Of a stretch of DNA of 64,000 nucleotides, positions 14,401 to 20,400 are shown one piece after another. Made by a program: the position numbers. Every line of letters begins with the position of its first letter. Within the stretch, counting starts at the first letter, position 1. Source of the DNA: Coraliomargaritaceae bacterium (GTDB lineage: Bacteria; Verrucomicrobiota; Verrucomicrobiia; Opitutales; Coraliomargaritaceae); the NCBI GenBank assembly GCA_965656495.1, contig CBFHKU010000001.1:178781-242780 (forward strand), in the 5' to 3' direction.

Positions 14401-17400
14401 GCGGGTTTGTTGGCGAGGGCTTCCATGGCATCAAATTCTTCAGCAGCGATGCTTTTGGTGGAAGTGGGTGCGTCGGGCTTGGCTTCGGGCTGGGGTTCGG
14501 CGGGTGGGTTGTCGGAGCTTGCGGCGGTTTCGGTTTGTGTGTTTTTGAGGGTCTCGGATAATTCCTGTTGAGCGGTGCGCCATGTTTGGAGCTCGCTGCG
14601 GGCGGTGGTCGCCCAGTCGCTGGCGTCGACCGCTCCGGGGAAGCGTTGGTCGAGTTGCGCGATGAGGGTTTCGGCGGCGGGCCAATCGGCGGCGGCGAGT
14701 TTGATTTCAAGGAGTCCGAGGAGGGCGGTGAGGGCTTCGGGGCCGCTATCCTGGGCGGCGATTTTAAACCATCGCTCTGCGAGGGCTTTGTTATCGAGTT
14801 GGAGGAAAAGGGTGGCGATGGCGTTGGCGGTTTCCGGCGCGATGAGGGCGGGGTCATTGGGGATGCCTTTGAGGTAGGCATCGAGCGCGGCTTGGGTTTC
14901 GTTGGCGGCTGCGAGGCTGGAACCGAGCCTGAACCAAAGTTCAGGTTTCATGGCGTCGGGTGCGCGGGTGGCGAGTTGACGGAGGATGGGGAGGCTGTCT
15001 TCGCCGGCGGCCTCGAGCGCGAGATATGCCTGATATAAAAGCTCGATGTTTTCCGGGGCATTCAGCGCGGCTTGTTCCAGGTAGAGGGCGGCGAGGTTGA
15101 GGTCGTTGGTCTTTTGGTAAATTTCGCCGATAAGCTGAAGGATCTCGGGATCCTGTTGATTTGTTTCGAGGAGGGATTGCAGGATGGTGAGGGCTTCCTG
15201 GCTTTGACCATTCGCCTGGAGATTGATGGCATTGTCGATTTGATTGCGGCGGGCGGTTTCCGGATCGGTGCAGGCCGTCACTGCGAGCAAGGCGGCCAAA
15301 AGCATGATGAGACCGTGGAAATGGATGCGGTTATTTTTTTTATTTTTCATGGTCGGCATCTCTTTTTTATACTATGCGGTGAGAATGTGGAGAAAACTTT
15401 ACAAAGAACACTTGTGCGGCGCTTGTAAGAGTCAAGGTGATTGGTGTATGCGCGGGTGTTTAAGATGGGTGCAAATTTGTTTGGCTGCTTTAGTTTTTGC
15501 TTCCGGGGGCTTGTCGGGATCGGGTCTGGTATGGGAGGCCGCGACGCCCGAGGGGTCGGATTACGTGGCGGCGGTGGAATCGTTGTTGTCAGAATACGAA
15601 TCGGAGACGGGGCGTGAACTGAAGCCGGGCGCGCTGGGGAAGGCGGGTTTGAAGGTGAATACGCGGAGTGGTCTGGGTTTATCGACGCCGCGTCCTTTGT
15701 TGCGGGCATTGATTGCTTCGTTGGAAAGCCGTGGCTTTGCGCGGGCGGATATTTTGATTGTGGATGCGGATGCCTACAATTTGCGGCAGGCGGGGATTTT
15801 GCCGTCGCTGGCGGAACCGGAACTGAAGTTTGAGGGCTGTCCGGTGTTGGCGTTAAATGAGGGGGGTTTTTATGACGAGGCGTGGTATTACGATAGTCCA
15901 CTGCCACCGGCGATGCGGGTCTTGGATGCGATGGGCCGCGACGAGGCAGAAGCCGAGGGGGTGGCGCGGAAGAGTTTTTTGCCGCGTCCGCTCTTATTTG
16001 AGGTGGATTACTGGATTAATCTGCCGGTGGGATGCGATGACCCGGCGTTAGGGGTGGACGGGGCCTTGGTCAACATGACGCTCTGGAACGTGAGCAATAG
16101 CCGTCGTTTTTTGGTGAATCAGGCGACCGCTTCGGCGGCGGTGGCGGAGATTGCGGCGATACCGGAATTGGTGGATAAGGCGGTCCTGCATTTTATGCCG
16201 ATGGATTTGTATCAATTCATCGGGGGGCCGTTTTTCAATTCACTCTACACGCACGGGGAGGGGGTCTTGCGGATGAGCGCGGATCCGGTGGCCTTGGATC
16301 GTTTGTTGTATGATGCGATCAATGAGCGCCGCCGTCTGGCGGGATTTCCGGAGATTTTGCCGATGCCACAACAGTTGCCCTTTGCGGCAAGTTTGGGGTT
16401 GGGGGTTTATGAGCGGGAGGCGATTGAGCGCCGCGCGGTGGATTTGAGTGAATAAATGCGCTTCTTTTGGAGAAACACCTTGAATAAAAAGCAAAAGCAA
16501 TTCTTTACTAGGGGATGCAATTAGCGGATTTCTACCCAATTTTGGTGCAGCTCGTTCTCGTTTTGGGAATCGCGGTCACGATTCTGGTGGCTTCGCATAT
16601 TTTTGGGCAACGCTCGGTGGGTTCCGCGATCAAGAATTCGCCGTATGAATGCGGTATGTTGGCGGAGGGTTCCGGGAGTGCGCGCTTTGCGGTTAAGTTC
16701 TACGTGACTGCGATGTTGTTCATCCTTTTTGATATCGAGGTTGTTTTCCTAATTCCCTGGGTGATGGTGTTCCGTGAATTTTTAGCGGCGCAGTTGCCGA
16801 TCCTCCTGCCGGTTTTCTTTTTCCTATTTGTCCTGGTCTTGGGCTTGATCTACGAGTTGCGAAAGGGCGCGATCGAGTGGGAAAAATAGATTGCATTTGG
16901 AATTTTGATTCAGCACCCCGGCTTCGCTCAAGGAAGCCCGGAACTTTTCTCCAACGCCTCGTTCTTATCTGTAAGGACGTCGCACCATTTGTCCACGAAC
17001 GACCCCTTGTACCCGATGCGCATTGACCGTTACATTTCCCGTAGTCGTGTCATCGATTTGAAGAGCACCGATTTCAAGGGTGCCTTGTCGGAATTGCTGG
17101 AGGTCTGCGATTTTTCGGGAGAAAGCAAGATCAGCAAGGGCGGCCTGCTGAAGAAATTAATGGAGGGGGAACGCTTGATGACGACCTATTTGGGTGGCGG
17201 TATATCCCTCCCGCATGCGCGCGTTAAAATGAAGCGCAACTATTTGCTCGCGGTGGGGCGCTGTCCGGAAGGGCTCAACTACGAGGGGCAAAAAGAATAC
17301 GGCGAGATTCGTTACGTCTTTCTCCTCTTGGCGTCTGAGAAAGCGCGGAATTATTTATACAGTCTGGCGTCCTTGGCGCGGGTCTTTCAGGACAAGGCGC

Positions 17401-20400
17401 TGATGGAGCAACTGAGCGCGGCGACGAGCCTGGAGGCGTTTCAGGTTGCCTTGAAATCGGTCTTTAGCGGAGAGGGGGATCGCCTGCCGCGTCAGCACAA
17501 TCGCTTCAATAAGTTGATCCTTAAGGAAGCCGCAAAAATCGCGCGCGGGGCGAAATGCGGGGCGGTCTTGGTCTTTGGTGACACTTTTGGGGGCCGGGTG
17601 GAAATTGGCGAGACCTTCAAGGATTTCAAGACGGTGCTCATTGCGCAGGGCACCTCCGAGGTGGTCAGCGAGCGCGATGAGATCGAGGCGGTGTTGCCCT
17701 TGCGCGCTTACAGTAATCACCGGTTCTCGCAGTTGCGCAGTGCGGTGCTGATCGGTTTGACGCGGGGGATTTTTTCCAGCACGGATCGTCTGTGTTGCGT
17801 GGGTGGGGTGCCGCAAAGCAATCAGTTTGACAGTATTACGGTGGTGGACGTGGAGCGTGAATTCCACACGATGCTGTTTCACAATTCCCAGATGCTGCCG
17901 TCGTCGGTGAAGCCGGAGGTGATCGAGCGGGTGCTGGCGATTGCGACCGAGTTGGCGGTGGAAGGCCGCGAGGGGCACCCGGTTGGTTGTCTCTTTGCAC
18001 TGGGCAACGCCGAGCGCATTCTTGAATACACCAAGCCGCTGATCCTGAATCCCTTTTACGGTTACAAGGACGAGGAGCGCAATATTTTGAATCCTTTCAT
18101 GGATGAAACCGTGAAGGAATTGTCGTCGATTGACGGTGCGTTTATCATTCGCGGGGACGGCGTTTTGGCAGCGGCGGGTACTTTGATTCATGTGCCGGAC
18201 TACGCGCACAGTTTGCCGGGGGGGTTGGGGAGCCGTCACGCCGCGGCCTCCGCGATTTCGCAGGCGGAGGACTGCCTCTGCATCGTGGTATCGGGAAGCA
18301 CCGGGCAGGTGACGCTTTTCCGGCGCGGCGAGATGTTGCCGCTCATTGAGAAGGCGCTGGTGCGGAATTCCTAGCTGACGCAAGGCTGGGTTTGAAGGTG
18401 GGAAAGTAAAAAGTTTGAAGGTATTTGCCGTAAGGATACTTTAACGACTTTGTAGTAAATTATACATCAGGACCACTTTTACCTTCCCACTTTCCCACCT
18501 TCGTACTTTTGTACATCCCATGACCGACCGAATTGCTCAAGTCTTTGCCAAAACCCGCGAGGAGAAGCGGGCCTGCTTTGTGGCGTATTTATGCGCGGGC
18601 GATCCGGACTTCGAGACTTCTCTGGCAGCGTGCCGCGCGGTCATTGAATCGGGAGCGGATATTCTGGAATTGGGGGTGCCGTTCTCGGATCCCCTCGCGG
18701 ACGGTTTGACGAATCAACTCGCGGCACAGCGTGCCATCGAGAGTGGGATGACCGCAGCGCGGGTGCTGGATTTGGTTCGGGCGGTGCGGGAATTCAGCGA
18801 GGTGCCGATTGTTTTCTACACCTACTATAATCTGGTCTTTGCGCAGGGCAGCGCCGCCTATGCGAAAGCCGTGAAGGCGGCGGGAGTGGATGCGCTGCTA
18901 ACGCTGGATTTGCCACCCGAGGAAGCGGAATCGCACCTCGCGGCCTGTGCGGCGGAGGGTTTGCAGACGGTTTTCATTGTGGCACCCACCACCCCGGACG
19001 AACGCCTGCCGCTCATTTGCAAGGCGACTACCGGATTCGTGTATTACGTTTCGCGTGAGGGCGTGACCGGGGAACAGGCTTCGATGTCGGAGGGGATCGC
19101 CACGCGCGTGGCGGCGATCAAAGCACACACCGACCTCCCGGTGGTGGTCGGTTTTGGCATTTCCACCGCCGAGCATGTGCGCACCGTCGGGCAATCCGCC
19201 GACGGCGTGGTAGTGGGCAGTGCCATCGTGAACTGTATCGCCGCCAACCCGGATGATGCGGAAGCCGTCACCACCGCCCTGAAGGAAAAGATGCAAGACC
19301 TCTGCGCGGGGAATGCGCCGGCGGGTGGAACGGTTTGACAGAAAAGAATAAATGTTCTCTACTGGGAACATGAAAACCACCCTCGAGGTTCCTGAGGATT
19401 TATACCTCAAAGTCAAAGCGCAGGCCGCTTTGCGTCGGCGTAAAATCAAGGATTATGTGGCGGAGGGATTGAGGTTGGCGTTGAAAGCCGATGTGGCGCG
19501 TGAGGCGGCATCTCACGATCCCCTCACGGTCTTTGAGGAGATTCGCAAGGAACCGTATCATGATGCGGACAAAGTGCAGGCTATGATTGAGGAGGCCCGA
19601 GCCGGGCGGAAAGCGTCGTGGCTCGAGGAGGCGTCGTGAGCAACCTGCTTTTGCTGGACACCAACGCACTGATTGCACTGAGCGCACCGGGTCACCCGCT
19701 TTTTCAATGGATTGAGGCAGCCCTGAGGGTAGGCGGACAGGCCTTTACCTGCTCGGTAGCCTGGCACGAATATGTGCGGGGGCCGCTTGAAAAGCGCGAC
19801 CAGCAGCGGGCGCTACGCATCATTAAGCAGCGAATTGAGCCCCTGGGGCGAGAAGCTGCTGAAATCGCGGCGGTTCTGTTTAACGCTACGGGTCGGTGCC
19901 GGGGATCGACTGCGGACTGCCTGATTGCCGCGGTGGCACTTTGCAAAAACGCACAGTTGGTCACATGGAATACCGATGATTTCCGGGTGTTTGTGCCGCA
20001 CGGCCTCAAACTCGCCGAGATGGACTAGTTCCAAGCTCTCACCTGGGCGGGTAATTCAAGGTTTCATGGTAGCTTCGAAACCGGCATCACCACCGCCCTG
20101 AAGGAAAAGATGCAAGACCTCTGCGCGGGGAATGCGTAACCTTACTGTAACAATACCGTAATCTTTGTTACGCGCGGGTAATATTCCCAGCGCCAAAGGC
20201 TTAAATGTTTGTCCTGTGGCGGTTATTGATCAGCTAAGTTAGACTATAGTTATGATCACGTATTACGTAATGATACGTAGTATAAAGTTGTAGCTGTATG
20301 AACACTATGAACGCTGCCTCTACGACAAAATTCTACTTAATTTTATTGGTATCCATCGCTCCCAGTTGCCTCTGGGCGCTGAAGTTTGAGATCCCGAAGG

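What a model noticed while it worked through the whole genome (the two positions that open the first line are those of the whole stretch)
17016..18374. Transporter-less PTS whose only two EIIA domains are fused to a DacZ-type diadenylate cyclase and to a cation/proton ant [...]
The genome keeps the PTS phosphorelay head (EI g01863 C23:3519-5288, HPr g00741 C3:170659-170964, HPr kinase g01824 C20:3037-4005) but no EIIB/EIIC permease and no free PtsN. Its only two EIIA (PF00359) domains are fused N-terminally to the sole diadenylate cyclase (g00168: EIIA - DacZ_P - DAC, 452 aa) and C-terminally to an NhaP-type cation/proton antiporter with a TrkA_N domain (g00848, C4:101214-103454, 746 aa). Both keep the G-x-G-I-[AS]-[LI]-P-H phospho-histidine motif, so the PEP/HPr phosphorylation state is predicted to act directly on c-di-AMP synthesis and on cation flux.
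Evidence so far: pfam.tsv: PTS_EIIA_2 36-147, DacZ_P 162-285, DAC 314-439 in g00168; Na_H_Exchanger 28-396, TrkA_N 411-500, PTS_EIIA_2 627-744 in g00848; these are the only PTS_EIIA rows, DAC occurs once, no EIIB/EIIC row. Motifs at residues 60-67 and 658-665; HPr keeps His-15-type and Ser-46-type sites. find_homologous_proteins: the 120 best hits (73-94% identity, 451-454 aa) all carry the same three domains, from Coraliomargarita, Lentimonas, Puniceicoccaceae, Opitutaceae. relatives.tsv: DacZ_P in 815 of 1127 Opitutales but 836 of 4822 Verrucomicrobiota. neighbours.tsv: the upstream gene g00167 = NuoA stands apart from nuoB-N (C6:93548-107178) and is next to a DAC gene in 718 of 1127 Opitutales against 728 [...]
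(Added by a program. Inside this text positions count along the whole contig: contig position 178,781 is position 1 of the stretch shown here. "Call 12" and the like, gene names such as g00115 and contig names such as C1 are that model's own, and its searches are not shown. The text may have been shortened before it was handed on; [...] marks where a part breaks off. The agent that wrote the report below was given it as the finding of a first reader that could run no searches.)

Follow-up and report, generated by a model that had tools for sequence, protein, structure and literature searches.

The report
PTS-switched c-di-AMP synthase gene
This gene encodes the bacterium's only enzyme for making the signal molecule c-di-AMP, fused to a phosphotransferase-system receiver domain, in a genome whose phosphotransferase system has no sugar transporter, so it probably ties c-di-AMP and potassium control to the cell's carbon and energy state; nobody has tested this.

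Summary
Window 17016-18374(+) encodes a 452-aa EIIA(PtsN-like)-DacZ_P-DAC protein. It is the only DAC of the genome and carries one of its only two EIIA_2 domains. The other EIIA is the C-terminus of a YcgO/CvrA-like K+/H+ antiporter. EI, HPr (His15- and Ser46-type sites intact) and HprK are present. No EIIB or EIIC was found with the five families searched.

In 151 genomes of the same order the pattern is general. A DAC was found in 148 (single copy in 144), EIIA_2 in 142 (exactly one match in 103), EI in 127, HPr in 131 and EIIC in 7. All 24 genomes without EI are reduced (1.1 Mb or less) except one fragmentary assembly. In those lineages the phospho-His or the whole EIIA domain is repeatedly lost, while the cyclase motifs stay intact.

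This supports a regulatory relay PEP-EI-HPr-EIIA(His67) that modulates c-di-AMP synthesis. Phosphotransfer and its sign are inferred only. Two caveats: this protein has Gly where 175 of 198 relatives have an active-site-type Arg, and some genomes without EI or HPr keep the His.

The fusion family is already catalogued (class 'DacD') and untested, and this scan has met it at least six times on other DNA.

The parts
17016..18374 (+). Gene for the 452-aa EIIA - DacZ_P - DAC protein (P0001), the only diadenylate cyclase of the genome
   Evidence: ORF and translation. Three Pfam domains above cut-off. Single DAC hit in the genome. AlphaFold2 model with mean pLDDT 91.3 and pTM 0.79.
17121..17456 (+). 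PTS EIIA type-2 domain (residues 36-147), PtsN-like
   Evidence: PF00359, 63.3 bits. The best solved relatives are PtsN / EIIA-Ntr: 4gqx at E 1.1e-7 with the single sequence and 2.6e-24 with the family profile. Foldseek top hit is 2a0j, target-normalised TM 0.83.
17193..17216 (+). G-G-G-I-S-L-P-H motif (residues 60-67); His67 is the predicted phospho-acceptor
   Evidence: Aligned with GEGVAIPH of PtsN. The position is His in 180 of 198 family members. The Arg usually found 16 residues upstream is Gly51 here.
17499..17870 (+). DacZ_P domain (residues 162-285), like the C-terminal domain of pyruvate kinase
   Evidence: PF21755, 70.2 bits. The family profile hits the C-terminal domain of pyruvate kinases at E 3e-5 to 3.5e-4.
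17955..18332 (+). DAC (DisA_N) catalytic domain (residues 314-439), with DGA at 373-375 and R-H-A at 407-409
   Evidence: PF02457, 73.6 bits. Aligned to CdaA structures. D373, G374, R407 and H408 are invariant or nearly so; position 409 varies across the family (Ala 67, Arg 11 of 151 rows).
16515..16889 (+). nuoA, the only copy in the genome, detached from nuoB-N and conserved directly upstream of the cyclase gene
   Evidence: PF00507, 102 bits. Single tblastn hit in the genome. The C6 operon runs nuoB to nuoN without nuoA. Directly upstream on the same strand in 21 of 29 family representatives and in 73 of 75 related loci.
16890..17015 (+). 126-nt spacer between nuoA and the cyclase gene; no terminator-like or promoter-like consensus site on the + strand
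   Evidence: Co-transcription is possible but not shown.

Best explanation
The gene encodes a soluble, DacZ-type diadenylate cyclase with a built-in PtsN-like EIIA receiver. It is the terminal output of a regulatory phosphotransferase system that has no permease.

Proposed path:
- PEP phosphorylates EI, EI phosphorylates HPr on the His15-type residue, and HPr phosphorylates His67 of the fused EIIA domain.
- With no sugar permease to drain the relay, its phosphorylation level should follow the PEP:pyruvate ratio.
- HprK, by phosphorylating the Ser46-type residue of HPr, should throttle the relay according to glycolytic state.
- The phosphorylation state of EIIA, together with the pyruvate-kinase-C-like DacZ_P domain, then sets how readily two DAC domains pair to make c-di-AMP.
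- c-di-AMP acts on potassium and osmolyte transport. Candidate receivers here are TrkA-TrkH and two other transporters with TrkA_C domains. A PgpH-type protein is a candidate hydrolase.
- In this family of genomes a second EIIA, fused to a YcgO-like K+/H+ antiporter, puts K+ efflux under the same relay.

Shown: the domains, motifs and fold; the genome inventory; the order-wide co-occurrence; and the decay of the EIIA site where EI is lost.

Inferred: phosphotransfer, the effect on catalysis, and the c-di-AMP targets.

The sign is open. Lineages without EI or HPr keep this enzyme as their only DAC, with intact catalytic motifs, so the unphosphorylated form must be active. Phosphorylation is therefore more likely a modulator or brake than an obligatory on-switch.
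For: 1. Architecture, motifs and fold.
2. It is the sole DAC, and the genome has only two EIIA domains.
3. EI, HPr and HprK are intact. HPr has GIHARPA and VNGKSIMG, and both sites are invariant in 21 HPr sequences of the order.
4. No EIIB or EIIC was found with five families.
5. Order sample of 151 genomes: DAC in 148 (single copy in 144), EIIA_2 in 142 (exactly one match in 103), EI in 127, HPr in 131, HprK in 125, EIIC in 7. Of the 7 EIIC genes, 6 share a contig with, and lie within a few kb of, a separate ~840-aa EIIA-HPr-EI gene; the seventh (G023) lies beside a free 150-aa EIIA and a 717-aa HPr-EI frame.
6. Coupled decay. His is kept in 27 of 29 EI-positive family representatives. In the 22 loci from EI-less genomes His is kept in 10, replaced in 9 (Tyr, Asn or Cys) and the EIIA domain is deleted in 3. 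DGA and R-H are intact in all 51.
7. Complementary decay of HPr. In genus g9 (no EI, HprK kept) HPr loses the Arg next to the active His but keeps the Ser46 motif; the EIIA there has Tyr, and hprK abuts the cyclase gene in 4 genomes. In family f34 (EI found in 5 of 7 genomes, HprK in none) the two HPr sequences examined keep HARP but have a diverged Ser46 region.
8. A permuted DacZ_P-DAC-EIIA protein that keeps the His exists (P0048).
9. Precedents. Unphosphorylated PtsN binds and inhibits the CPA1 K+/H+ antiporter YcgO (PMC11808508). PTS-Ntr controls (p)ppGpp accumulation in Caulobacter (PMC4848567, abstract as listed).
10. TrkA-TrkH, two further TrkA_C transporters, a PgpH-type protein and DHH proteins are present.
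Against: - No experiment exists on any member of this family.
- This protein and its two nearest relatives have Gly51, where 175 of 198 family members have Arg. By alignment this is the first Arg of 'RER' in PtsN. From recall, it is the active-site Arg57 of E. coli EIIA-Ntr. The antiporter's EIIA also lacks Arg there.
- Ten loci from EI-less genomes keep the His, and eight of those genomes also lack HPr. The His is therefore not maintained only by the relay.
- Two EI-positive representatives have lost it (G004 Tyr, G053 Asn).
- The EI-less genomes are all reduced and fast-evolving and are related to one another, so the association is confounded and counts are not independent events.
- EI has no GAF domain and there is no free PtsN, so this is not PTS-Ntr in the strict sense.
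- No c-di-AMP riboswitch was found in 8 genomes of the family.
- 8 kb of C1 is withheld and the bin has gaps.
Confidence: 0.55

Rival explanations
1. The EIIA domain is a structural, dimerising or ligand-binding module that is never phosphorylated. The PTS proteins of the genome serve other partners, and the cyclase is controlled through DacZ_P or protein level only.
For: EIIA-DAC with the His persists in 8 sampled genomes where neither EI nor HPr was found. Variants with Tyr, Asn or Cys at that position keep the domain. This protein lacks the near-invariant Arg51.
Against: In 103 of 151 genomes there is exactly one EIIA_2 match, so EI and HPr would have no EIIA-type acceptor at all. The His is kept in 180 of 198 members. 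The site decays or the domain is deleted mainly where EI is absent, while the DAC motifs stay intact.
Confidence: 0.2
2. Control runs through HprK and HPr(Ser-P). Seryl-phosphorylated or free HPr binds the EIIA domain and regulates the cyclase by contact; phosphotransfer to His67 is secondary or absent.
For: In genus g9 there is no EI and the EIIA has Tyr, yet HPr is kept (4 of 5 genomes) with an intact Ser46 motif, HprK is kept (4 of 5), and hprK lies directly downstream of the cyclase gene in 4 genomes.
Against: Family f34 has no HprK in any of 7 genomes, but EI was found in 5 and HPr in 6. The two of its cyclases examined keep the EIIA His, and their HPr keeps HARP. EI is retained in 127 of 151 genomes. 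Gene adjacency in reduced genomes can arise by deletion. The two modes can also coexist.
Confidence: 0.15
3. The DAC domain is catalytically dead because RHR reads RHA, and the protein is a sensor or scaffold rather than a cyclase.
For: The third residue of the classical RHR motif is Ala.
Against: Position 409 varies across the whole family (Ala 67, Thr 17, Gln 12, Arg 11 of 151 rows), while D373, G374, R407 and H408 are invariant or nearly so. It is the only DAC in 144 of 151 order genomes, which include very small ones. A PgpH-type candidate hydrolase is kept.
Confidence: 0.03

Closest known systems
Class 'DacD' diadenylate cyclases. Nomenclature recalled from Corrigan & Gruendling 2013 (not seen). 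Representatives are listed in Braun et al. 2019, PMC6741144 (passages read). Probably one of the 22 families of Galperin 2023, J Bacteriol 205:e00023-23 (not held).
   Same: The representatives named in PMC6741144 come from Lacunisphaera, Puniceicoccaceae, Coraliomargarita and Opitutae. The same taxa carry full-length relatives of this protein at 47-99% identity. Same order-wide family.
   Different: Nothing differs in architecture. This copy and two near relatives carry Gly instead of the family's Arg at position 51. I could not read the class definition itself.
Archaeal DacZ / CdaZ (Haloferax volcanii DacZ, an active and essential Mn-dependent cyclase; PMC6741144 and PMC10249747, passages read)
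   Same: A pyruvate-kinase-C-like N-terminal domain followed by DAC. The best NCBIfam hit is DacZ, NF041371, over residues 201-441.
   Different: 109 bits against a cut-off of 430, so it is not an equivalog. It carries an extra N-terminal EIIA domain, and it is bacterial.
PtsN (EIIA-Ntr) of the regulatory PTS-Ntr of Proteobacteria, and the incomplete PTS of Brucella (PMC2937029, abstract as listed)
   Same: Fold and sequence are closest to PtsN. The PTS has no permease. HprK is present, and hprK sits next to lptB-like and LptC/A-like genes, a context recalled as typical of the rpoN-ptsN locus. Both systems link to K+ homeostasis.
   Different: The EIIA is fused to its target instead of free. 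EI lacks the GAF domain of EI-Ntr. TIGR01419 scores 35 bits against a cut-off of 138.7. Arg51 is missing in this copy.
E. coli PtsN-YcgO pair (PMC11808508, abstract and passages read)
   Same: A CPA1 K+/H+ antiporter is controlled by an EIIA-Ntr-type domain. The membrane part of the antiporter here best matches the K+/H+ antiporter models PRK05326.
   Different: Here the EIIA is covalently fused. The cytoplasmic region has TrkA_N, not the RCK_C plus CorC of YcgO. The NCBIfam score is below cut-off (137.8 against 309).
EIIA-Ntr control of SpoT and (p)ppGpp in Caulobacter (PMC4848567 and PMC6344854, abstracts as listed)
   Same: A regulatory PTS sets the level of a nucleotide second messenger.
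   Different: A different messenger and enzyme; the control acts in trans and has been demonstrated experimentally.

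Membership tests
PTS EIIA type 2 (PF00359), PtsN-like | Profile match above the gathering score | tested here: met
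   63.3 bits against 27.
PTS EIIA type 2 (PF00359), PtsN-like | EIIA-Ntr/Mtl fold | tested here: met
   Foldseek hits 2a0j, 3urr, 4gqx and 1a6j with target-normalised TM 0.75-0.83, on a model of pLDDT 91.
PTS EIIA type 2 (PF00359), PtsN-like | Phospho-acceptor His in the ...G-[IV]-A-x-P-H motif | tested here: met
   His67 aligns with the His of GEGVAIPH in PtsN. The position is His in 180 of 198 relatives.
PTS EIIA type 2 (PF00359), PtsN-like | Conserved Arg 16 residues before the His (its active-site role is recalled, Arg57 of E. coli EIIA-Ntr) | tested here: not met
   Gly51 here and in L085 and L086; Arg in 175 of 198 relatives. Arg53 lies two residues later.
PTS EIIA type 2 (PF00359), PtsN-like | Phosphorylation by HPr~P | not testable with these tools
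PtsN proper (TIGR01419 equivalog) | Score above the curated cut-off; a free protein of about 160 aa | tested here: not met
   35.1 bits against 138.7, and the domain is fused.
Diadenylate cyclase (DAC / DisA_N, PF02457) | Profile match above cut-off and DAC fold | tested here: met
   73.6 bits against 27. CdaA, DacA and DisA structures match.
Diadenylate cyclase (DAC / DisA_N, PF02457) | DGA motif | tested here: met
   D373-G374-A375. D and G are invariant in the 141 residue-bearing rows of 151.
Diadenylate cyclase (DAC / DisA_N, PF02457) | RHR motif | tested here: inconclusive
   It reads R407-H408-A409. R and H are nearly invariant and the third position varies family-wide. Whether RHA-type enzymes are active was not tested here.
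Diadenylate cyclase (DAC / DisA_N, PF02457) | Makes c-di-AMP from ATP | not testable with these tools
   No experiment on this family was found (paper searches).
DacZ (NF041371, haloarchaeal equivalog) | Score above the curated cut-off | tested here: not met
   109 bits against 430.
DacZ_N superfamily / DacZ_P (PF21755) | PK_C-like sensor domain in front of DAC | tested here: met
   70.2 bits against 27.4. The profile hits pyruvate-kinase C-domains.
Class 'DacD' cyclases | Verrucomicrobial (Opitutae) DAC clade; an EIIA-bearing architecture is recalled, not seen | tested here: inconclusive
   The taxa of the representatives listed in PMC6741144 match the taxa of my relatives. The defining paper could not be read.
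Regulatory, permease-less PTS | EI + HPr + EIIA present, no EIIB or EIIC | tested here: met
   Five EIIB/EIIC families were searched and four were not. 8 kb is withheld.
PTS-Ntr in the strict sense | EI-Ntr with an N-terminal GAF domain; free NPr and PtsN | tested here: not met
   EI is 589 aa with only PEP-utiliser domains, and its best equivalog is PtsI. No free EIIA.
YcgO/CvrA K+/H+ antiporter (for the second EIIA carrier) | NCBIfam equivalog cut-off; RCK_C + CorC tail | tested here: not met
   137.8 bits against 309. The tail is TrkA_N + EIIA, and no TrkA_C was found in residues 471-642.

The most novel reading that the evidence does not exclude
In a whole order of Verrucomicrobiota the phosphotransferase system has been stripped of transport. 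It is kept as a dedicated sensor of PEP:pyruvate, and of glycolytic flux through HprK. Its universal output is the cell's only c-di-AMP synthase, and in some families also a K+/H+ antiporter. This would merge the two great bacterial regulators of potassium, PtsN and c-di-AMP, into one pathway. In lineages that lost EI, HPr(Ser-P) made by an adjacent HprK still talks to the Tyr-variant EIIA domain. The conserved nuoA-dac gene pair may further tie the cyclase to respiratory complex I.
Probability: 0.4. Interest if true: 0.75.

Novelty: new variant of a known kind. Interest (0 to 1): 0.55.

Why it matters
What signal controls c-di-AMP synthesis is still an open question for most cyclases. Here the input domain is one whose biochemistry is well understood and easy to reconstitute with PEP, EI and HPr. 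A single in vitro experiment could therefore show a defined metabolic signal switching a diadenylate cyclase.

It would also connect two regulators of potassium homeostasis, PtsN and c-di-AMP, that have so far been studied in different phyla.

The order-wide picture is a clean natural experiment that predicts which residues matter: one DAC, mostly one EIIA, almost no permeases, and decay of the EIIA site where EI is lost.

Tried and rejected
- Complex prediction (HPr with EIIA residues 1-155) was not available, so no docking result exists.
- Galperin 2023, He et al. 2020, Commichau et al. 2018 and Barabote & Saier 2005 are not held. I could not check whether the architecture, or a permease-less verrucomicrobial PTS, is described there.
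- Paper searches for 'diadenylate cyclase' with DacZ or EIIA, with PTS_EIIA_2, for 'DacZ_P', for c-di-AMP + Verrucomicrobia + phosphotransferase system and for c-di-AMP + PtsN/EIIANtr/PTSNtr found no paper on a link from the PTS to a diadenylate cyclase.
- I looked for a TrkA_C (RCK_C) domain in the antiporter linker (residues 471-642), which would have made it a CpaA-like c-di-AMP target. None was found.
- I looked for a c-di-AMP riboswitch. None was found in 8 genomes of the family.
- I considered that the two EIIA domains are recent duplicates. Rejected: they share 22% identity.
- I considered RHA a defect. Rejected: it is normal for the family.
- I considered the longer TTG start at 16905. 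Rejected on the homologue alignments.
- I did not obtain model coordinates, so I could not measure where His67 sits relative to the DAC active site.

Full report
**1. What is in the window**

The frame at 17016-18374(+) starts with ATG and gives 452 aa. A longer TTG frame from 16905 exists. However, relatives of 451-454 aa align from residue 1, so the ATG is the start.

Pfam finds three domains, all far above their cut-offs:
- PTS_EIIA_2 at 36-147 (63.3 bits)
- DacZ_P at 162-285 (70.2 bits)
- DAC at 314-439 (73.6 bits)

Against solved structures the N-terminal domain is closest to PtsN / EIIA-Ntr. The match to 4gqx has E 1.1e-7 with the single sequence and 2.6e-24 with a 68-member family profile. 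GGGISLPH (residues 60-67) aligns on GEGVAIPH of PtsN, which makes His67 the predicted acceptor.

The middle domain matches the C-terminal (allosteric) domain of pyruvate kinases with the profile, at E 3e-5 to 3.5e-4. The C-terminal domain aligns with CdaA, DacA and DisA.

An AlphaFold2 model built on the 68-sequence alignment is confident, with mean pLDDT 91.3 and pTM 0.79. Foldseek puts EIIA-Ntr first (2a0j, target-normalised TM 0.83) and CdaA next.

The cyclase has DGA (373-375) and R-H-A (407-409). In 150 cluster representatives plus the query, D373, G374, R407 and H408 are invariant or nearly so, while position 409 varies (Ala 67, Thr 17, Gln 12, Arg 11). 'RHA' is therefore normal for this family.

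**2. Genome inventory**

The genome is 2.06 Mb in 31 contigs and 99.36% complete. Six-frame searches gave the following.
- PF00359 hits twice: this gene, and the C-terminus of a 746-aa protein on C4.
- DAC hits once.
- EI is 589 aa with PEP-utiliser N, mobile and C domains and no GAF. TIGR01417 is above its cut-off.
- HPr is 101 aa with GIHARPA and VNGKSIMG.
- HprK/P matches TIGR00679 above its cut-off.
- PTS_EIIC, EIIA-man, EIIA_1, PTS_IIB, EII-Sor, EIIC-GAT and PTS_EIIB gave nothing above cut-off.
- Not searched: EIID-AGA, PTSIIB_sorb, the Gut families and lactose-type IIA.
- 8000 bases of C1 (360001-368000) are withheld and there are eight short N runs.

The second EIIA carrier has Na_H_Exchanger at 28-396, TrkA_N at 411-500 and EIIA_2 at 627-744, with GHGIAIPH at 658-665. 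No TrkA_C was found in its linker. Its membrane part best matches the NCBIfam K+/H+ antiporter models PRK05326, below their cut-off, and its tail best matches PtsN. The two EIIA domains share only 22% identity, so they are not recent copies.

hprK lies directly after a LptC/LptA-like gene and an LptB-like ABC ATPase gene and before dnaA. I recall this context as typical of the rpoN-ptsN locus of Proteobacteria.

**3. The pattern is order-wide**

I searched the same sample of 151 genomes of the order, all at least 90% complete.

| Component | Genomes with a match |
|---|---|
| DAC | 148 (exactly one match in 144) |
| EIIA_2 | 142 (exactly one match in 103, by my count of the table) |
| EI | 127 |
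| HPr | 131 |
| HprK | 125 |
| PTS_EIIC | 7 |

The DAC match almost always lies in a frame of 444-540 aa. Where the row for a single EIIA_2 match was printed, it lies in the same frame as the DAC match.

Of the seven EIIC genes, six share a contig with, and lie within a few kb of, a separate gene of about 840 aa that combines EIIA, HPr and EI. The seventh (G023) lies beside a free 150-aa EIIA and a 717-aa HPr-EI frame. These look like self-contained fructose-type PTS clusters.

By my cross-tabulation, 113 of 151 genomes have EI, HPr and EIIA_2 but no PF02378 EIIC.

The full antiporter-EIIA fusion occurs in 15 of 151 genomes, in families f1, f5, f10 and f12. One of the 15 has an internal stop. 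A further 26 genomes have only antiporter matches that stop short of the EIIA domain; 25 of them carry homologues aligned to about residue 490-560, and G056 has a copy truncated at residue 606 by a stop.

In a phylum sample of 251 genomes DacZ_P was found in 52. Of these, 49 belong to this order, and none was found in the other orders of the class that were sampled. The best 80 of 587 related loci in the species-level genome collection all bear Opitutia or Verrucomicrobiota labels, apart from two that look like mislabelled bins. They are full length at 47-99% identity.

So 'permease-less PTS with a fused EIIA on the only DAC' is the normal state of the order. This genome's family adds the antiporter as a second output.

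**4. A natural experiment**

All 24 genomes without EI are reduced genomes of 0.8-1.1 Mb (families f4, f7, f18, f32 and part of f34), except one fragmentary assembly, G016. I fetched the cyclase locus from 22 of them. The other two are G016 and G090, where no DAC was found. I also fetched one representative from each of 29 EI-positive families and aligned them all.

- EI-positive families: the acceptor position is His in 27 of 29. The exceptions are G004 (Tyr) and G053 (Asn).
- EI-less genomes: His in 10. It is replaced in 9: five Tyr in genus g9, then G006 Asn, G085 Asn, G131 Tyr and G047 Cys. The whole EIIA domain is missing in 3 (G032, G057, G114; frames of 294-352 aa).
- DGA and R-H are intact in all 51 loci, so the decay is specific to the receiver domain.

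HPr decays in a complementary way.
- Genus g9 has no EI but keeps HprK in 4 of 5 genomes. Its HPr keeps the His but loses the adjacent Arg (HATPA or HIAPA) while keeping the Ser46 motif. hprK also lies directly downstream of the Tyr-variant cyclase gene in four genomes.
- Family f34 has EI in 5 of 7 genomes and HprK in none. The two HPr sequences examined (from G034, which has EI, and G059, which does not) keep HARP, but their Ser46 region has diverged. The two f34 cyclases examined keep the His.

A permuted protein, DacZ_P-DAC-EIIA with the His kept, also exists (P0048).

These patterns are what a working EI-HPr-EIIA relay predicts, with a possible second mode through HPr(Ser-P).

They are not proof. 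The EI-less genomes are related to one another and fast-evolving. Eight of them keep the His without EI or HPr. The counts are not independent events.

**5. Caveat specific to this copy**

At position 51, sixteen residues before His67, 175 of 198 family members have Arg. This protein and its two nearest relatives (L085, L086) have Gly, with an Arg two residues later.

In the alignment to PtsN this column is the first Arg of 'RER'. From memory it corresponds to the active-site Arg57 of E. coli EIIA-Ntr. The antiporter's EIIA also lacks Arg there. EI and HPr of this genus are intact. Whether phosphotransfer is weakened in this lineage cannot be told from sequence.

**6. How it most likely works**

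PEP phosphorylates EI, EI phosphorylates HPr(His), and HPr phosphorylates EIIA(His67).

Without a permease the relay should report the PEP:pyruvate ratio, and HprK should gate it through Ser46. Both points rest on established PTS knowledge applied here by inference.

The receiver state, together with the PK_C-like domain, would then tune the head-to-head pairing of DAC domains that catalysis needs. That requirement is known from CdaA and DisA structures; its use here is inferred.

Lineages without EI or HPr keep this protein as their only DAC, so the unphosphorylated form must be active. Phosphorylation is therefore more probably a modulator or brake. The sign is open.

Downstream candidates in this genome:
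- TrkA-TrkH
- a CitMHS-type transporter and an Asp-Al_Ex-type transporter, both with TrkA_C domains
- a PgpH-type 7TMR-HD protein and DHH proteins as possible hydrolases
- no c-di-AMP riboswitch

That RCK_C domains bind c-di-AMP and that PgpH degrades it is recalled from the literature, not tested here.

For the antiporter there is a direct precedent. In E. coli, unphosphorylated PtsN binds the cytoplasmic region of the CPA1 K+/H+ antiporter YcgO and inhibits it, and phosphorylation weakens the binding (PMC11808508, abstract and passages read). The fusion here looks like the covalent version of that pair.

**7. What is known and what is new**

Braun et al. 2019 (PMC6741144, passages read) list a bacterial class 'DacD' with representatives from Lacunisphaera, Puniceicoccaceae, Coraliomargarita and Opitutae. 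This is the same clade. The Pfam DacZ_P model also shows that the family is curated.

The papers that define these classes could not be read. My five paper searches found no study of a PTS input to a diadenylate cyclase.

This scan has met the family at least six times on other genomes. Earlier notes call it catalogued and untested, state that RHA is normal, mention a His-to-Tyr subgroup, and suggest once that a permease-less PTS controls c-di-AMP. I re-derived the RHA point, the Tyr subgroup and the 'DacD' listing myself.

- the order-wide inventory
- the coupled decay of the receiver site and of the HPr sites
- the hprK-dac adjacency in g9
- the parallel with YcgO-PtsN
- the Gly51 deviation
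- the nuoA-dac synteny

**8. Verdict**

The gene is an ordinary member of a catalogued family. The system is a new variant of the known regulatory, permease-less PTS, with a second-messenger synthase as its main output.

Interest is moderate to good, because a simple reconstitution could answer an open question about how c-di-AMP synthesis is controlled.

Noticed in passing
window 16515-16889 (nuoA) and 16890-17015: The genome's only nuoA is detached from the nuoB-N operon (C6:93497-107181). It sits 126 nt upstream of the cyclase gene with no terminator-like site between them. The nuoA-dac pair is conserved in 21 of 29 family representatives and in 73 of 75 related loci, and is absent from all 22 reduced-genome loci. 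The reason is unknown.
   Followed up: partly
window 17166-17168 (codon 51 of the cyclase gene): Gly51 replaces a near-invariant Arg (175 of 198 relatives) in this protein and its two closest relatives. The antiporter's EIIA also lacks Arg at the equivalent place.
   Followed up: partly
loci L014, L016, L017, L018 (genus g9 of the order): In reduced genomes without EI the cyclase's EIIA has Tyr for the phospho-His, hprK lies immediately downstream of the cyclase gene, and HPr keeps its Ser46 motif but loses the Arg next to His15.
   Followed up: partly
proteins P0048 and P0084: P0048 is a permuted DacZ_P-DAC-EIIA protein with the His kept. P0084 joins a DHH phosphoesterase domain to DacZ_P-DAC, which could be a synthase and hydrolase in one chain or a gene-calling fusion.
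   Followed up: no
G124 and G138 (family f28, genus g55), EI matches: EI lies in unusually long frames (808 and 821 aa) in two genomes where no EIIA_2 match was found. The cyclase of a sister genome (G053) has Asn for the His and only a weak EIIA score.
   Followed up: no
window 19352-20028: A small gene pair overlaps by 22 nt: a 95-aa protein with a weak ParD-antitoxin-like match and a 136-aa PIN-domain protein. It is probably a toxin-antitoxin module.
   Followed up: no
window 12000-16000: The GC skew is very high (0.30-0.34) across the region. The region includes a minus-strand gene (13737-15359) for a 540-aa protein with a Pro/Ala/Glu-rich low-complexity middle.
   Followed up: no
G000 C20:319-4005 (locus L013): hprK follows a LptC/LptA-like gene and an LptB-like ABC ATPase gene and precedes dnaA. 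This resembles the proteobacterial lptB-rpoN-ptsN neighbourhood (recalled), but without ptsN.
   Followed up: no
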